Of a stretch of 64,000 bases of DNA, positions 52,515 through 60,272 are shown in pieces (position 1 is the stretch's first letter; the number at the start of each line of letters is the position of its first letter). The stretch is taken from assembly GCA_000165345.1 (NCBI GenBank), contig CM000432.1, forward strand, positions 704,001 to 768,000. The letters are read 5' to 3'. The notes under the pieces were generated by a model. It searched no databases. It was given only the letters and a program-made list of their open reading frames with translations, and was not told the origin of the DNA. The position numbers and the translations under genes are program-made.

Positions 52515-52526
52515 TTAGGGTTTAGA
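52515..52526. other. telomere-like motif TTTAGGGTTTAG (interstitial)
   Basis: aactTTAGGGTTTAGaat. One of three copies of TTTAGGGTTTA(R) in intergenic DNA in this window. Confidence 0.4.
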
Positions 52527-53087
52527 ATATTTTTTAATCACCTTTTCAACCATTGAAGGACTTCTCAAGATTGTAAGCCCCGTTGGAATTTTGTGTTTCA
52601 TCCTTTCCCTTTATTATTGCCAATGTCTTCGTATTCTGCGAATCAATTGTTTTCTCCATGTATACCTTTTGTACAGTCTTTTGTCAGGTCCTAGCGTGCT
52701 AGAGTAAGGGCTGGCTCGGAGTGGCGTGAGATATAAGGGTTATCGTTCTAGACTTTGGAGATGTATCTAAACCAGCATTTTGTTGGTCCTGTATCCAAAG
52801 GACATTTCTAAGGAGGAACTTAACTAATAAGAAACATTAAATTGTACTATTATAGGTCCGAAATAATATACATGTAGATACTTAAGAACAAAAGGACATT
52901 CACTCAAAATGAAACTTTTTCATTGATTAGAAAACCAACAATTAGCAGGAATAGTTAGGTGTAAAATAAAGCATTTCAACTATATGGACTGTGTAATATA
53001 TACAAAATTATATTTTAAACATTAATTTAGATAGAAGCTTAATTTGGAGAATGAAAACCTTAGTGTTAAACATATAAAATAGGCCTA

Positions 53088-55166
53088 TTAACTTAATTTA
53101 TATAAACCCAAATCGATCATTTCTTTCAACTTAGATTCAATATATTGTGGAGCAACAGAAACTGAATAATATTGAGCCATTGTAGAAGTTGCATCAAGTA
53201 AAGTACTACCAAAAAGTCCTTGTTTAAATCTCGCAACGTGATGATGAAGTTGTTCTCTGGCTTTATGAATAGCAATAGTCATATCTTTAATTGTGCATGA
53301 AGATTGTAGTTTAAGATGTTCCCTTTCCATTTGATTGTATTTATGCACAAGCTTTAATCTTTTCCATTCATTCAAATTATCCCAACAACTGCTCCACTCA
53401 GGACCATATATATTGTTTCTTAACTCTTTGAAAAATCTTTGAAGTACCTGAATTGCTGTCAAGAATTGTTTTGCTTGTGTTGCAACGGATTTATCAAATG
53501 TAAGAAAATTATCAACATGGTCAGATATACTGCTGTTTTCATTAATTAATTCCTCTATTACAGTGCTCCACGTATCAGCTAAGACATTCATTTCGCTTTT
53601 CGAGGCAAAATAGGCAGCCTCATCAACTAATCTTCTTAGCTCAATGATATCTTCTCTTCTATCTGGTCTATAAATACGACAAGGAGTATCGATCAGATAC
53701 TTATCTACCCCTTTTCTACTATTAATTTCTTTAGTCATATCTAAGCTGAAAGAGAAATCTATCATACGAAAGTTTTCAAGCTTAAATCGAATCACTCTTA
53801 GACCTTGTTTATTCTTGGAGGTAGCTTGTTCAGCACCATAACCAGAATTCTTAGGAGCATCGACATTGATTCCATCACTAGAGGTGCTGGCTGATGTATC
53901 TGAATTCAAAATTTGTTTACATGGAAATTTGTTATCGTAAAAAGAGTCATCAAAAGAAGTTGATGCTTTATTTGTATTACACTCATTAGTGCTCCCTTGT
54001 AATTTATTGTCAGAGCTTTCATAATCGGAATTTGACATATTTATTTTGTTTATGTGATTTGATTGTTCCATTTTTTCGTTCAGTCTTTTAGTAATTTCAA
54101 GGGGAAGACTATTAACTTCCATCAAATTAATATATTCATCATCATCGATTAAGAATCCTTGCCCATCTTTAATAATTTTCGTAATTTCGAGAGGATCTGA
54201 CAAATATTCTTCCAAAATCATAATATTTGGATGACATAAATCGCAATGGTATATATTTTGTTCCCAAATTCTTTGTAAGAAGTTCAAGGTATGATCTAAC
54301 AAAGAAAGCCTATATCTAAATCTTCCGAGAATTTCGCCAGCAGAATTATTAATACTAATTCTTAACAGCATTTCTCTTCTCTTTATAGCTTCATTGTTTT
54401 TATATTGGCTATTTCGAGCTGCAACTAAATTACTATATGCTCTTAAAACTTTTCTAAAGCTGTTTTTCATATGAAAAATTTCACTTTGTCTGAGCCTCTT
54501 CAGAACTTCGCTTAAAGTCACGCCTTCTAAATATTGCATAAATATATAACGATCAAATTCATGAATTGGAGTACCCCATTTGCTTGTAACTGTGTAGACA
54601 TTTGGACTAATAAAGTTGTTTAAAACTTTTCTACCAGATATATATGTGGTCATATACTTCTCCATTAAAAAACCAATGTTGAATTCAGAACTGCTCTTAT
54701 TTGGAAGAAGTATAGGAAGTCTATCTAAATATGCATACTTATATTGGGTACTTAGCTTGCTATTTTCGCGTTTAATAAAGACATTAATAGCATCCACGTC
54801 CTTAATTAGATCTTTTTCATAGCATTGGTATGTTAAATCTGGATTTAAGCTACAGTTCTTATAAATCCTAAAATTTGAATTCATTGGGTATAAAGTTGCA
54901 GCCACCCCAACTCCGAACATTCCTCCAAAGCTTTTAAGCACGCCAGAGTCATCATATTTGCACTTAATGAAATTAAATTGTTCGCTTTTACAAATCGCTA
55001 GATCAATCTCGTGGATCAATTTTAATCTCTCAAATGCAACCTGTCTCTTAACTACCTGCTGCCTTTTCAGATTTTTTTTTATTTCTTCTTGGAAGGTTTC
55101 ATTTAGATCAGATCCTAGCACAATACTGCAGAATAAAAACAGAAAATAGACTAGCCTCAAATTCAT
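53088..55166 (-). CDS. secreted protein with atypical protein-kinase / aminoglycoside-phosphotransferase-like fold (hypothetical secreted kinase-like protein)
   Basis: Signal peptide MNLRLVYFLFLFCSIVLG. A Gly-rich loop KSFGGMFGVGVAA precedes a putative hinge (FMQYLEGVTL), a catalytic-loop-like IYHCDLCHPNIMI (compare HGDLHPGNIL of APH/choline kinases or HRDLKPEN) and a DFG-equivalent GFLIDDDEY, all in canonical kinase order. A C-terminal region of about 330 aa follows. Confidence 0.5.
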   Translation of the reverse strand: MNLRLVYFLFLFCSIVLGSDLNETFQEEIKKNLKRQQVVKRQVAFERLKLIHEIDLAICKSEQFNFIKCKYDDSGVLKSFGGMFGVGVAATLYPMNSNFRIYKNCSLNPDLTYQCYEKDLIKDVDAINVFIKRENSKLSTQYKYAYLDRLPILLPNKSSSEFNIGFLMEKYMTTYISGRKVLNNFISPNVYTVTSKWGTPIHEFDRYIFMQYLEGVTLSEVLKRLRQSEIFHMKNSFRKVLRAYSNLVAARNSQYKNNEAIKRREMLLRISINNSAGEILGRFRYRLSLLDHTLNFLQRIWEQNIYHCDLCHPNIMILEEYLSDPLEITKIIKDGQGFLIDDDEYINLMEVNSLPLEITKRLNEKMEQSNHINKINMSNSDYESSDNKLQGSTNECNTNKASTSFDDSFYDNKFPCKQILNSDTSASTSSDGINVDAPKNSGYGAEQATSKNKQGLRVIRFKLENFRMIDFSFSLDMTKEINSRKGVDKYLIDTPCRIYRPDRREDIIELRRLVDEAAYFASKSEMNVLADTWSTVIEELINENSSISDHVDNFLTFDKSVATQAKQFLTAIQVLQRFFKELRNNIYGPEWSSCWDNLNEWKRLKLVHKYNQMEREHLKLQSSCTIKDMTIAIHKAREQLHHHVARFKQGLFGSTLLDATSTMAQYYSVSVAPQYIESKLKEMIDLGLYKLS

Positions 55167-55409
55167 ATGCTAGCCGTTTTTAATATTTCTGGGATTGTCC
55201 ATTTAGAAGTAGTTAAGTATGCGAGCTTACCAAAAAGTTAAATTTATATCTCTACCAACTTAAACACAAATCTTTATCCTTTGCAATGCTCGCTATATCG
55301 ACTACTCCACCTACTTTAAGTTTGACTTTCTTTATTTGAAAATGAAAAATTACTTTAGTCTTATATGACTCAGTCACTGCACGTACATGTCTCTAGGCCG
55401 GCGGTACCT

Positions 55410-55427
55410 CACGTGCATGTGGCGCCA
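55410..55427. promoter_or_regulatory. CACGTG (E/G-box) plus palindromic E2F-like TGGCGCCA in the divergent spacer between the kinase-like gene and the NIF phosphatase gene
   Basis: acgtgcatgTGGCGCCAata. Preceded by GGCCGGCGGTACC. Confidence 0.35.
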
Positions 55428-59336: not shown

Positions 59337-59354
59337 TGCCGCCGTTCAGCGGCA
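59337..59354. repeat. GC-rich palindrome TGCCGC-cgttca-GCGGCA in the TRM1/RPB10 divergent spacer
   Basis: 6-6-6 inverted repeat, about 75 bp upstream of the TRM1 ATG and about 105 bp upstream of the RPB10 ATG. Same GCCGC(C)...G(G)CGGC architecture as 51498-51513 and 26171-26186. Confidence 0.45.
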
Positions 59355-59459
59355 GTTGTTGTCCAAAGAAAAAAAAACTCAAATAAATCAAATAAATTAT
59401 TCCAATAATTTATTCTCGGGAAGTGGTAAATATTTCACTTGTTTGGAAACAGCTTCAGT

Positions 59460-59747
59460 ATGATCATTCCAGTTAGATGTTTCACATGCGGAAAAGTTAT
59501 TGGTAATTTGTGGCAGCCATGGCTGGTTTTACTACAGAATAATGTACCTGAAGGGTAAGTTGAATAAAAAGTTTATTCATTAATTTATATTGACTATAAT
59601 TTTTATTCCTTTGATCATTTTAGAGAAGCTCTTGATAAGCTAGGATTAAGAAGGTACTGTTGTAGAAGAATGATTCTTACACATGCAGACTTGATTGAAA
59701 AACTTATGGCATATAACATTCATGAGAGGAAAACTATGATGAATTAG
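59460..59747 (+). CDS. RPB10: RNA polymerase subunit RPB10 (RPABC5/ABC10beta), two exons: join(59460..59554,59624..59747), 72 aa
   Basis: [32 protein letters not shown] | [40 protein letters not shown] matches RPB10 almost residue-for-residue ([18 protein letters not shown]...[29 protein letters not shown]). The donor GG|GTAAGT needs splicing because the unspliced frame reads GGG TAA. 69-nt intron ending TTTTAG. Confidence 0.85.
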
Positions 59748-60014
59748 ACTAATCGGTTTTTCTAAATAATTCTTTAATTAACTCTAGTAAATATTCAGCA
59801 GGGCTAACTTTAACAAGAGCCATAGTACAATTAGCTATTATATAAATTCTAATTAAGTAATCAACATTTTTTTTTCGAATTTTGAATTATATTATTACAA
59901 TGTAATTTAAATAGATACCTTTAAACATTCCGTAAATACTTCAAAGATATTATAAAATACTATAACTCTAATATACTGAGAATATCTAATTTATTTGAAA
60001 CTATCTAATAAGAT

Positions 60015-60272
60015 TTAGTCACTGAACCTTCTGATAATAAATGGAAGAATTTTAAATCCTGCCCATGCAACTGCAATAAATTCGAAAAATTCAACTTTGA
60101 TAAATTTTAGTTTTAGGGTTTAAGAATTTATATCTTACCTGTTAAGAAACGTATTTTAAAAATCAACTCCTTTTTCAATATTTCTGTTGGTGATTCTAGA
60201 TTTATTAAGATTAGTCGCGAATTATAATTCAACACACACATTACCTTTTGATTCTTTGCTTAAGTTAAACAT
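60015..60272 (-). CDS. 54-aa tail-anchored membrane protein encoded by three micro-exons: complement(join(60015..60094,60139..60195,60245..60272)); possible Tom7-like subunit
   Basis: Exon 1 ATGTTTAACTTAAGCAAAGAATCAAAAG|GTAATG, 49-nt intron to TCTAG. Exon 2 AATCACC...TTAACAG|GTAAGA, 44-nt intron to CAAAG. Exon 3 runs to TAA. Phases are 1/1 at both junctions. Product is MFNLSKESKESPTEILKKELIFKIRFLTVEFFEFIAVAWAGFKILPFIIRRFSD. The N-terminus and the aromatic/Pro-containing C-terminal helix resemble human TOMM7 MVKLSKEAKQRLQQLFKGSQFAIRWGFIPLVIYLGFKRG (recalled from memory). Confidence 0.45.
60112..60124. other. telomere-like motif TTTAGGGTTTAAG (lies inside intron 2 of the micro-exon gene)
   Basis: ttttagTTTTAGGGTTTAAGaattta. 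Third copy of the motif. Confidence 0.4.

What the first reader, a model, noticed from the sequence alone, without database searches (positions are those of the whole stretch)
52515..60124. Three interstitial copies of the telomere-like motif TTTAGGGTTTA(R) confined to intergenic/intronic DNA
ctTTAGGGTTTAGaat (52515-52526), ttTTAGGGTTTAAGttt (56015-56027) and ttTTAGGGTTTAAGaat (60112-60124) share an 11-13-nt core not seen elsewhere in the window. For an AT-rich background I estimate roughly 0.1 chance occurrences of a specific GGG-containing 11-mer in 2x64 kb, so three copies in non-coding DNA is unlikely by chance. The core equals about 1.7 units of a TTTAGGG-type telomere repeat. In plants the equivalent telo-box (AAACCCTA) is a promoter element of translation-apparatus genes. 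The copies sit upstream of a NIF phosphatase gene, upstream of Hsp110 (inside the micro-exon gene intron) and in the long H3 5' region.
Basis: seen in the sequence. Interest (0 to 1): 0.5.

Follow-up and report, generated by a model that had tools for sequence, protein, structure and literature searches.

The report
Chance 11-mer triplet; one conserved promoter element
Three identical telomere-like 11-mers in this Cryptosporidium parvum chromosome-4 window are no more than chance gives once every possible 11-mer is counted, but one copy sits inside a short upstream element of a phosphatase gene that is conserved across the genus.

Summary
The window is Cryptosporidium parvum chromosome 4. TTTAGGGTTTA occurs exactly three times, all on the + strand and all in non-coding DNA, as reported. 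The first copy starts at 52514, not 52515.

- **Statistics.** The expectation of about 0.1 holds only for a pre-specified word. The window has 52 G/C-containing 11-mers with at least 3 copies; Markov simulations give 52.5±7.8. For GGG/CCC-containing words the counts are 2 versus 1.5.
- **Telomere likeness.** The Cryptosporidium telomere is the hexamer TTTAGG, not TTTAGGG.
- **Site 1** (408 nt upstream of histone H3) is exact only in C. parvum and C. tyzzeri and drifts at the local neutral rate.
- **Site 3** lies in intron 2 of a small 46-aa minus-strand gene. It is lost in chipmunk genotype I, C. ubiquitum and beyond.
- **Site 2** (76 nt upstream of the NIF/FCP1-like phosphatase ATG) is constrained. 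It sits in the most conserved 25 nt of a 924-bp intergenic region, an array of phased heptamers TTTAGnn-TTTAGGn-TTTAAnn-TTTAA. TTTAGGNTTTA is kept there in 10 of 11 species. The third G, which makes the site look like TTTAGGG, is the least conserved column.

Verdict: the recurrent telo-box family is not supported. One copy belongs to a gene-specific conserved cis-element of unknown binding factor. Interest is low.

The parts
52514..52524 (+). Site 1: TTTAGGGTTTA, 408 nt upstream of the histone H3 ATG (52106) and antisense to H3. It lies in poorly conserved DNA beyond the conserved H3 promoter blocks.
   Evidence: position; exact only in C. parvum and C. tyzzeri; C. hominis has TTTGGGGTTTA, C. 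meleagridis TTTGGGGTCTA and chipmunk genotype I TTTAGAGGTTA; there is no counterpart in C. ubiquitum or beyond. Substitutions in the motif match the flank rate.
56008..56033 (+). Conserved phased-heptamer array TTTAGAT-TTTAGGG-TTTAAGT-TTTAA, lying 83 to 58 nt upstream of the NIF/FCP1-like phosphatase ATG. It contains site 2 (56015-56025).
   Evidence: it is the most conserved 25-nt stretch of the 924-bp intergenic region (mean identity to the 8 other aligned species 0.84). Identity in the array is 0.57-0.93, against 0.17-0.87 for the rest of the region. Column 56021, the third G, reads C,G,A,A,T,C,T,C in the other species. TTTAGGNTTTA is present here in 10 of 11 species; it is the only run of 3 or more phased TTAR units in each locus that has one.
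60112..60122 (+). Site 3: TTTAGGGTTTA inside intron 2 (60071-60138) of a small three-exon minus-strand gene, 811 nt upstream of the Hsp110 ATG.
   Evidence: identical in C. hominis, C. tyzzeri and C. meleagridis; ATTAGAGTATA in chipmunk genotype I; not recognisable in C. ubiquitum or C. canis, although the flanking exons stay conserved.
59206..59215 (+). Fourth copy of the 10-mer TTAGGGTTTA, inside the TRM1 coding sequence (minus strand, encoding ...INPNS...).
60015..60272 (-). Three-exon gene for a 46-aa protein (MFNLSKESKESPTEILKKELIFKIRFLTVAWAGFKILPFIIRRFSD). Exons are 60272-60245, 60195-60139 and 60070-60015. It hosts site 3 in its second intron.
   Evidence: the same GT..AG structure and protein are recovered in C. 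meleagridis, chipmunk genotype I, C. ubiquitum and C. canis. C. meleagridis carries a shorter 34-aa model here.
51699..52106 (-). Histone H3 gene, the neighbour of site 1.
   Evidence: PF00125.
56091..57269 (+). NIF/FCP1-homology CTD-like phosphatase gene, identical to C. parvum Iowa II EAK87795.1. The conserved array lies just upstream of it.
60923..63343 (+). Hsp110-type HSP70-family gene. An E2F-like GGCGCC site at 60419-60426 is a more plausible promoter element for it than site 3.

Best explanation
The three identical 11-mers are not a motif family. They are a coincidence of the kind a 64-kb AT-rich window produces dozens of times.

Site 1 (H3 upstream) and site 3 (an intron of a 46-aa gene) are young, unconstrained sequence that matches the word only in C. 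parvum and its nearest relatives.

Site 2 is different. It is the C. parvum version of a genus-wide conserved element just upstream of the NIF/FCP1-like phosphatase gene. The element is four to five heptamers in strict 7-nt phase with conserved TTTA(G/A) and a central TTTAGG, always in the sense orientation.

Inference, not shown: this array is a gene-specific promoter-proximal or 5'-leader cis-element. It would be read by a sequence-specific factor that recognises TTTAGG/TTAGG, which is also the organism's telomeric hexamer. Orientation and phase would matter, and the seventh base would be a spacer.
For: Chance level:
- The per-word expectation of 0.09 is correct.
- 52 G/C-containing 11-mers reach at least 3 copies, against 52.5±7.8 simulated. 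GGG/CCC-containing words number 2 against 1.47±1.19.
- Repeated 14-mers number 30 against 31.4±6.6.
- In about 138 kb of orthologous loci from seven more distant species, the exact 11-mer occurs only at the NIF site, in chipmunk genotype I and C. xiaoi.

Lack of constraint at sites 1 and 3:
- Site 1 is 10/11 identical in C. hominis and 9/11 in C. meleagridis. The flanks are 65/70 and 59/70.
- Site 3 is intronic. It is 8/11 identical in chipmunk genotype I and unrecognisable in C. ubiquitum and C. canis, while the flanking exons are conserved.

Constraint at site 2:
- It is the top-scoring 25-nt window of the intergenic alignment. Array identity is 0.82 in C. canis against 0.49 for the rest of the region, 0.75 against 0.40 in C. 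xiaoi, and 0.68 against 0.32 in C. felis.
- TTTAGGNTTTA lies within 38-102 nt of the ATG in 10 of 11 species.
- Every species has at least 2 sense-strand TTAGG within 300 nt upstream, against 0.17-0.38 expected. Only one antisense copy occurs in all 11 species.

Positive control: the known E2F-like motif TTGSCGSS occurs 9 times against 2.84 expected. All 9 fall in the gaps between the ORFs of at least 150 aa listed, and its GGCGCC core recurs in the orthologous promoters.
Against: - The relaxed word TTTAGGNTTTA occurs 5 times against 0.66 expected. All three exact copies share a strand, are non-coding and cluster within 7.6 kb. If a factor binds the site-2 sequence, it would probably also bind sites 1 and 3, and lineage-specific gain of binding sites cannot be excluded.
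- No genome-wide count could be made.
- The role of site 2 rests on conservation at one gene only. The transcription start is unknown, so DNA-level and RNA-level action cannot be separated.
Confidence: 0.72

Rival explanations
1. A real telo-box-like regulatory motif family. A telomere-repeat-type DNA-binding protein would bind TTTAGG(G)TTTA at all three sites and co-regulate H3, the NIF phosphatase and Hsp110 or the 46-aa gene. Sites 1 and 3 would be recent gains.
For: - Three exact copies against 0.09 expected for this word.
- TTTAGGNTTTA occurs 5 times against 0.66.
- All three are non-coding and on the same strand.
- One copy is clearly constrained.
- There are precedents in plants (telo-box) and fission yeast, where the Teb1/AACCCT-box sits in histone promoters.
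- C. canis has a TTTAGGTTTTA in its H3 upstream region.
Against: - The look-elsewhere analysis puts the triplet at chance level.
- Sites 1 and 3 evolve like their flanks and are absent outside the C. parvum clade.
- Their positions (408 nt upstream and antisense; 811 nt upstream and intronic) are unlike site 2.
- The extra TTTAGGNTTTA hits are in coding sequence.
- Orthologous loci of other species carry the motif only at NIF, apart from stray coding-sequence hits.
- The motif is absent from three published C. parvum motif surveys and from the motifs named in the text of the ATAC-seq study.
Confidence: 0.1
2. The site-2 array acts at the RNA level. It would lie in the 5' leader of the NIF phosphatase mRNA, and the phased UUUAG(G) units would bind a single-strand RNA-binding protein controlling translation or stability.
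For: - The sense orientation is strict in all 11 species.
- A 7-nt phase does not match the DNA helical repeat and suits single-strand readers.
- The array lies 30-100 nt from the ATG, downstream of a T17 tract of the kind reported in open-chromatin peaks.
- Plant telo-boxes are also mainly in 5' UTRs.
Against: - No transcription-start data were available, so it is not known whether the array is transcribed.
- There is no conserved RNA structure: consensus energy is -3.2 kcal/mol with a covariation term of about 0.
- No uORF is involved.
Confidence: 0.2
3. The array is a decayed interstitial relic of an ancestral 7-nt (TTTAGGG)n telomeric tract, left by chromosome healing or telomerase action at a break, with no present function.
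For: The 7-nt period and TTTAGGN/TTTAAGN units look like a degenerate TTTAGGG array. C. xiaoi begins with a perfect TTTAGGG unit.
Against: A neutral relic would have decayed like its flanks. Instead TTTA and the central GG are invariant or nearly so across species whose flanks are only 17-49% identical. The number of units and the distance to the ATG are also kept.
Confidence: 0.05

Closest known systems
Plant telo-box (AAACCCTA; short interstitial telomere motif in the 5' UTRs and promoters of ribosomal-protein, snoRNA and other translation-apparatus genes)
   Same: It is a short telomere-like word in 5' flanking DNA. Site 2 is promoter-proximal, orientation-fixed and conserved, like telo-boxes, which lie mostly in 5' UTRs (PMC3022908).
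   Different: - The plant box is identical to the plant's own telomere unit. Here the organism's unit is TTTAGG and the extra G is not conserved.
- There is no link to translation-apparatus genes.
- No enrichment could be shown.
- Only one of the three sites is constrained.
Fission-yeast AACCCT-box bound by the Myb protein Teb1 (TTAGGG) in core histone promoters; related Tbf1-type sites in other fungi
   Same: Site 1 reads TAAACCCTAAA in the H3 sense direction, so it contains AACCCT upstream of a histone gene.
   Different: - It lies 408 nt upstream, outside the conserved H3 promoter blocks.
- It is not kept in C. hominis (AACCCC) or C. meleagridis.
- Only one H3 locus was available for testing.
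Plasmodium telomere-repeat binding factors PfTRZ and PfAP2Tel
   Same: They are apicomplexan precedents for proteins that read GGGTT(T/C)A-type repeats. PfTRZ also affects a non-telomeric gene class, 5S rRNA (PMC12457308).
   Different: No Cryptosporidium orthologue or binding data were examined here. The Cryptosporidium site tolerates any base at the third G.
Cryptosporidium E2F-like promoter motif (TTGGCGCC / TTTGGCGGGAA)
   Same: It is a known promoter element of the same genome. It was used here as a positive control in the same window and in the same intergenic regions.
   Different: - It passes every test the telomere-like word fails: 9 copies against 2.84 expected, and all in the gaps between long ORFs.
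- Its GGCGCC core recurs in the orthologous promoters.
- It is described in the literature.

Membership tests
Plant-type telo-box / short interstitial telomere motif | The sequence is identical to the organism's own telomere repeat unit. | tested here: not met
   The Cryptosporidium telomere is (TTTAGG)n (PMC8848321 and PMC4407392). The 12-mer TTTAGGTTTAGG has no exact match in the window and a single 1-mismatch match. The motif carries an extra G, and that G is the least conserved column at the only constrained site.
Plant-type telo-box / short interstitial telomere motif | Non-random genome distribution, with over-representation in 5' flanks and 5' UTRs. | not testable with these tools
   Only 64 kb plus about 10 kb of this genome could be read. 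Within the window the triplet is at chance level after the look-elsewhere correction. In the orthologous loci the exact motif occurs only at the NIF site.
Plant-type telo-box / short interstitial telomere motif | Association with translation-apparatus or cycling-cell genes and with partner elements (site II / TEF). | tested here: not met
   The neighbouring genes are histone H3, a NIF/FCP1-like phosphatase, Hsp110 and a 46-aa protein gene. None encodes a ribosomal protein or translation factor. No shared partner motif is seen next to the three sites.
Fission-yeast AACCCT-box (Teb1 site of histone promoters) | Conserved presence in core histone gene promoters. | tested here: not met
   Site 1 contains AACCCT but is changed in C. 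hominis and C. meleagridis and absent in more distant species. The proximal H3 promoter blocks, in contrast, are conserved. Other histone loci could not be fetched (one search returned only this locus).
Interstitial telomeric sequence (ITS) proper | A tandem tract of the species' telomere repeat. | tested here: not met
   There is no TTTAGG tandem. The site-2 array has a 7-nt period with degenerate units and falls below the Tandem Repeats Finder threshold.
Conserved promoter-proximal cis-element (phylogenetic footprint); applies to site 2 only | Conservation clearly above the flanking non-coding DNA, at a fixed position and orientation relative to the gene, across divergent species. | tested here: met
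   Array identity is 0.57-0.93 against 0.17-0.87 for the rest of the intergenic region, and it is the best 25-nt window. It is present in 10 of 11 species, 38-102 nt from the ATG. TTAGG is on the sense strand only.
Conserved promoter-proximal cis-element (phylogenetic footprint); applies to site 2 only | Demonstrated factor binding or an effect on expression. | not testable with these tools
   No expression, start-site or binding data were accessible. The published C. parvum motif sets checked do not list it.

The most novel reading that the evidence does not exclude
The phased TTTAGG-containing heptamer array upstream of the NIF/FCP1-like phosphatase gene, conserved from C. parvum to C. felis, C. 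ryanae and C. xiaoi with TTAGG traces in C. muris, would be an undescribed Cryptosporidium cis-element. It would be read by a factor that also recognises the telomeric hexamer TTTAGG. That would make it a functional analogue of plant telo-boxes or fungal Tbf1/Teb1 sites in an early-branching apicomplexan. In C. parvum the factor would additionally occupy sites 1 and 3.
Probability: 0.2. Interest if true: 0.4.

Novelty: not a real feature. Interest (0 to 1): 0.15.

Why it matters
As reported, as a recurrent telomere-like promoter motif, it does not hold, so it should not seed a motif-family claim. The case shows how a correct per-word expectation (0.09) still misleads when the word is chosen after reading the sequence.

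The useful residue is small but concrete:
- A conserved upstream element of one Cryptosporidium gene is now precisely delimited. Cis-regulation in this organism is poorly charted, and the published motif sets checked here do not contain it. It could be tested with existing CRISPR and reporter tools.
- A small three-exon gene that most of the gene models returned for these loci miss was recovered.

Tried and rejected
- **Non-coding RNA.** An Rfam scan of the whole window found only three tRNAs, none near the sites. An ncRNA explanation was dropped.
- **Tandem repeats.** Tandem Repeats Finder at minimum score 30 did not report the heptamer array.
- **RNA structure.** An RNAalifold fold of the NIF leader gave -3.2 kcal/mol with no covariation. 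A structured RNA element was rejected.
- **5'-UTR intron.** I considered that the TTTAG units are 3' splice sites of a 5'-UTR intron. No donor site is conserved across species, and an in-frame TAA directly precedes the ATG.
- **Telomerase RNA template.** Rejected because there are three dispersed copies, the repeat length is wrong for TTTAGG, and Rfam gave no hit.
- **The 46-aa protein.** Pfam gave no hit. A resemblance to Tom7 recalled from memory is unconfirmed.
- **H3 paralogues.** A look-up meant to test a histone-promoter box returned only the same locus in other strains and species.
- **Literature.** Searches for the motif in Cryptosporidium motif surveys, the ApiAP2 protein-binding-array paper and the ATAC-seq study, and for 'interstitial telomer*' with Cryptosporidium, found nothing. 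One broad telo-box/Apicomplexa search was uninformative.
- **Genome-wide counting.** This was not possible.

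
Full report
**Identity of the window**

The window is eukaryotic. It is about 33% G+C, has long intron-poor ORFs and a few short introns. The 806-aa Hsp110-type protein is encoded identically on 1.1-Mb chromosomes. The NIF/FCP1-like phosphatase protein is identical to Cryptosporidium parvum Iowa II EAK87795.1. Its C. meleagridis orthologue carries a chromosome-4 locus tag.

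Genes around the finding:

| Gene | Coordinates | Strand |
|---|---|---|
| Histone H3 | 51699-52106 | - |
| 692-aa protein, no Pfam domain above the curated cut-off | 53088-55166 | - |
| NIF/FCP1-like phosphatase | 56091-57269 | + |
| TRM1 | 57318-59264 | - |
| Rpb10 (one intron) | 59461-59748 | + |
| Hsp110 | 60923-63343 | + |

**The observation**

TTTAGGGTTTA occurs exactly three times, at 52514, 56015 and 60112, all on the + strand. Shuffles give an expectation of 0.09 for that word.

A fourth copy of the 10-mer TTAGGGTTTA lies at 59206 in the TRM1 coding sequence.

- Site 1 is 408 nt upstream of the H3 ATG and antisense to H3.
- Site 2 is 76 nt upstream of the phosphatase ATG.
- Site 3 is 811 nt upstream of Hsp110.

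I reconstructed the 'micro-exon gene' that hosts site 3. It is a three-exon minus-strand gene (60272-60015) for a 46-aa protein. The same GT..AG structure and protein are recovered in C. meleagridis, chipmunk genotype I, C. ubiquitum and C. canis. Site 3 lies in its second intron, 60071-60138.

**Is it more than chance?**

The estimate of 0.1 is right for a word named in advance. This word was chosen after reading the sequence.
- The window holds 374 distinct 11-mers with at least 3 copies. Dozens are non-repetitive words with expectations of 0.04-0.1, such as ATCTAAACCAG and GTCAAAAGTCA.
- Third-order Markov simulations give the same numbers. For 11-mers with at least 3 G/C bases and at least 3 copies, the window has 52 and simulations give 52.5±7.8.
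- For 11-mers containing GGG or CCC, the window has 2 and simulations give 1.47±1.19.
- The 14-mer shared by sites 2 and 3 is equally ordinary: 30 repeated 14-mers observed against 31.4±6.6.

The triplet alone is therefore not evidence of function.

The relaxed word TTTAGGNTTTA occurs 5 times against 0.66 expected. The two additional hits, at 38128 and 54862, are in coding sequence.

**Telomere likeness**

Published assemblies give the Cryptosporidium telomere as the hexamer TTTAGG (PMC8848321, PMC4407392). The 11-mer matches TTTAGGG-type repeats of other lineages, not this organism's own repeat. The window has no TTTAGG tandem.

**Comparative test**

I fetched the syntenic locus from ten other Cryptosporidium species: C. 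hominis, C. tyzzeri, C. meleagridis, chipmunk genotype I, C. ubiquitum, C. canis, C. xiaoi, C. felis, C. ryanae and C. muris.

*Site 1.* It is exact only in C. parvum and C. tyzzeri.
- C. hominis has TTTGGGGTTTA, C. meleagridis TTTGGGGTCTA and chipmunk genotype I TTTAGAGGTTA. Nothing aligns further out.
- The changes match the flank rate, for example 10/11 in the motif against 65/70 in the flanks for C. hominis.
- The site lies outside the well-conserved proximal H3 promoter blocks.

*Site 3.* It is identical in C. hominis, C. tyzzeri and C. meleagridis. It is ATTAGAGTATA in chipmunk genotype I and unrecognisable in C. ubiquitum and C. canis, while the two flanking exons stay conserved. This is ordinary intron drift.

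*Site 2.* This site behaves differently.
- It sits in the single most conserved 25-nt stretch of the 924-bp intergenic region. Mean identity to the eight other aligned species is 0.84.
- Array against rest of region is 0.82 against 0.49 in C. canis, 0.75 against 0.40 in C. xiaoi, 0.68 against 0.32 in C. felis and 0.57 against 0.17 in C. muris.
- What is conserved is a phased heptamer array, TTTAGnn TTTAGGn TTTAAnn TTTAA.
- Column 56021, the third G that makes the site look like TTTAGGG, is the least conserved position. It reads C,G,A,A,T,C,T,C in the other species.
- TTTAGGNTTTA is found 38-102 nt upstream of the phosphatase ATG in 10 of 11 species.
- In each locus that has such a run, it is the only run of three or more phased TTAR units.
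- All 11 species have at least two sense-strand TTAGG within 300 nt upstream, against 0.17-0.38 expected. Only one antisense copy occurs in all.

**Positive control**

The known Cryptosporidium E2F-like motif (PMC3734150; the ATAC-seq preprint) was searched as TTGSCGSS.
- It gives 9 hits against 2.84 expected.
- All nine fall in the gaps between the ORFs of at least 150 aa. That includes the 692-aa/phosphatase promoter (55421), the TRM1/Rpb10 promoter (59336) and a site 504 nt upstream of Hsp110 (60419).
- Its GGCGCC core recurs in the orthologous intergenic regions.

A real promoter motif is therefore detectable with these tests in this window. The telomere-like word fails them at two of its three sites.

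**What it most likely is**

*Shown:*
- The triplet is at chance level.
- Two copies are unconstrained.
- One copy belongs to an element conserved across the genus, strand-fixed, in 7-nt phase and close to the phosphatase ATG.

*Inferred:*
- This element is a gene-specific cis-element. It may act on DNA as a clustered binding site for a factor reading TTTAGG/TTAGG, or on the 5' leader RNA.
- The strict sense orientation and the non-helical 7-nt phase lean slightly towards a single-strand or orientation-dependent reader. There are no start-site data, and no conserved RNA structure was found.
- A neutral relic of an ancestral (TTTAGGG)n tract is unlikely, given the conservation excess.

**Comparison with known systems**

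- *Plant telo-box* (PMC3022908). It resembles site 2 in position and orientation. It is defined by identity to the host telomere unit, genome-wide 5' enrichment and linkage to translation-apparatus genes. The first and third features are not met here, and the second could not be tested.
- *Fission-yeast AACCCT-box/Teb1* in histone promoters (PMC5128866). This is a tempting parallel for site 1, but that site is not conserved even in C. hominis.
- *PfTRZ and PfAP2Tel*. They are apicomplexan precedents for telomere-repeat readers. Nothing links them to this element.
- *Literature.* The word does not appear in the C. parvum motif surveys, the ApiAP2 study or the ATAC-seq study. No paper pairs Cryptosporidium with interstitial telomeric sequences.

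**Verdict**

The sequence observation is real. The inference of a recurrent telo-box-like promoter motif is not supported. The defensible residue is a single conserved upstream element of the NIF/FCP1-like phosphatase gene whose core is TTTAGG-N-TTTA. Interest is low. A genome-wide count and start-site and ATAC-seq overlays would settle the remaining doubt.

Noticed in passing
window 60015-60272 (-): A three-exon gene encodes a 46-aa protein (MFNLSKESKESPTEILKKELIFKIRFLTVAWAGFKILPFIIRRFSD) between Rpb10 and Hsp110. Its exon structure is conserved in at least five species. It is absent from most of the gene models returned for these loci, and C. meleagridis carries only a 34-aa model. Pfam gave no hit, and a Tom7-like look is only a recollection.
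   Followed up: partly
window 18089, 22070, 26169, 27326/27328, 44707, 55421, 59336, 60419: E2F-like sites (TTGSCGSS) occur 9 times against 2.84 expected. All fall in the gaps between ORFs of at least 150 aa. The GGCGCC core recurs in the orthologous promoters of several species. This served as a positive control for promoter-motif detection.
   Followed up: partly
window 52107-52310, including 52298-52307 (CCCGCCTAAA; TTTAGGCGGG in the H3 sense): The proximal histone H3 promoter holds several blocks conserved from C. parvum to C. canis. One is an E2F-like GGCGGG site about 195 nt upstream of the ATG, which would fit S-phase control of H3.
   Followed up: partly
window 55812-55822 and 55876-55915; T17 tract 55933-55949: Two further conserved blocks lie upstream of the phosphatase gene in the C. 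parvum-to-C. canis clade: GGTTAGG(G/A)C about 275 nt upstream and TGTGAAAAGTTTAC..GGTTTGTGCTAA about 195 nt upstream. Both carry TAGG-type cores in the sense orientation. C. canis has TAGGGTTAGGGTTTA at the first. A 17-T tract lies between them and the heptamer array.
   Followed up: partly
window 59336-59357: A G+C-rich island (TTGCCGCCGTTCAGCGGCAG) sits in the short bidirectional TRM1/Rpb10 promoter. C. xiaoi, C. ryanae and C. muris carry a canonical TTTGGCGCC in the same intergenic region.
   Followed up: partly
window 5971-6044 (+), 11882-11955 (-), 12207-12283 (+): Three tRNA genes (Val-TAC, Thr-CGT, Ile-TAT). These are the only Rfam hits in the window.
   Followed up: no
window 52534-52749 (-), equivalent to L006 6455-6670: C. 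meleagridis has an annotated 71-aa gene right next to the site-1 position. C. parvum has no ORF of at least 60 aa there, so that model is probably spurious. The segment is relatively G+C-rich and gave no Rfam hit.
   Followed up: no
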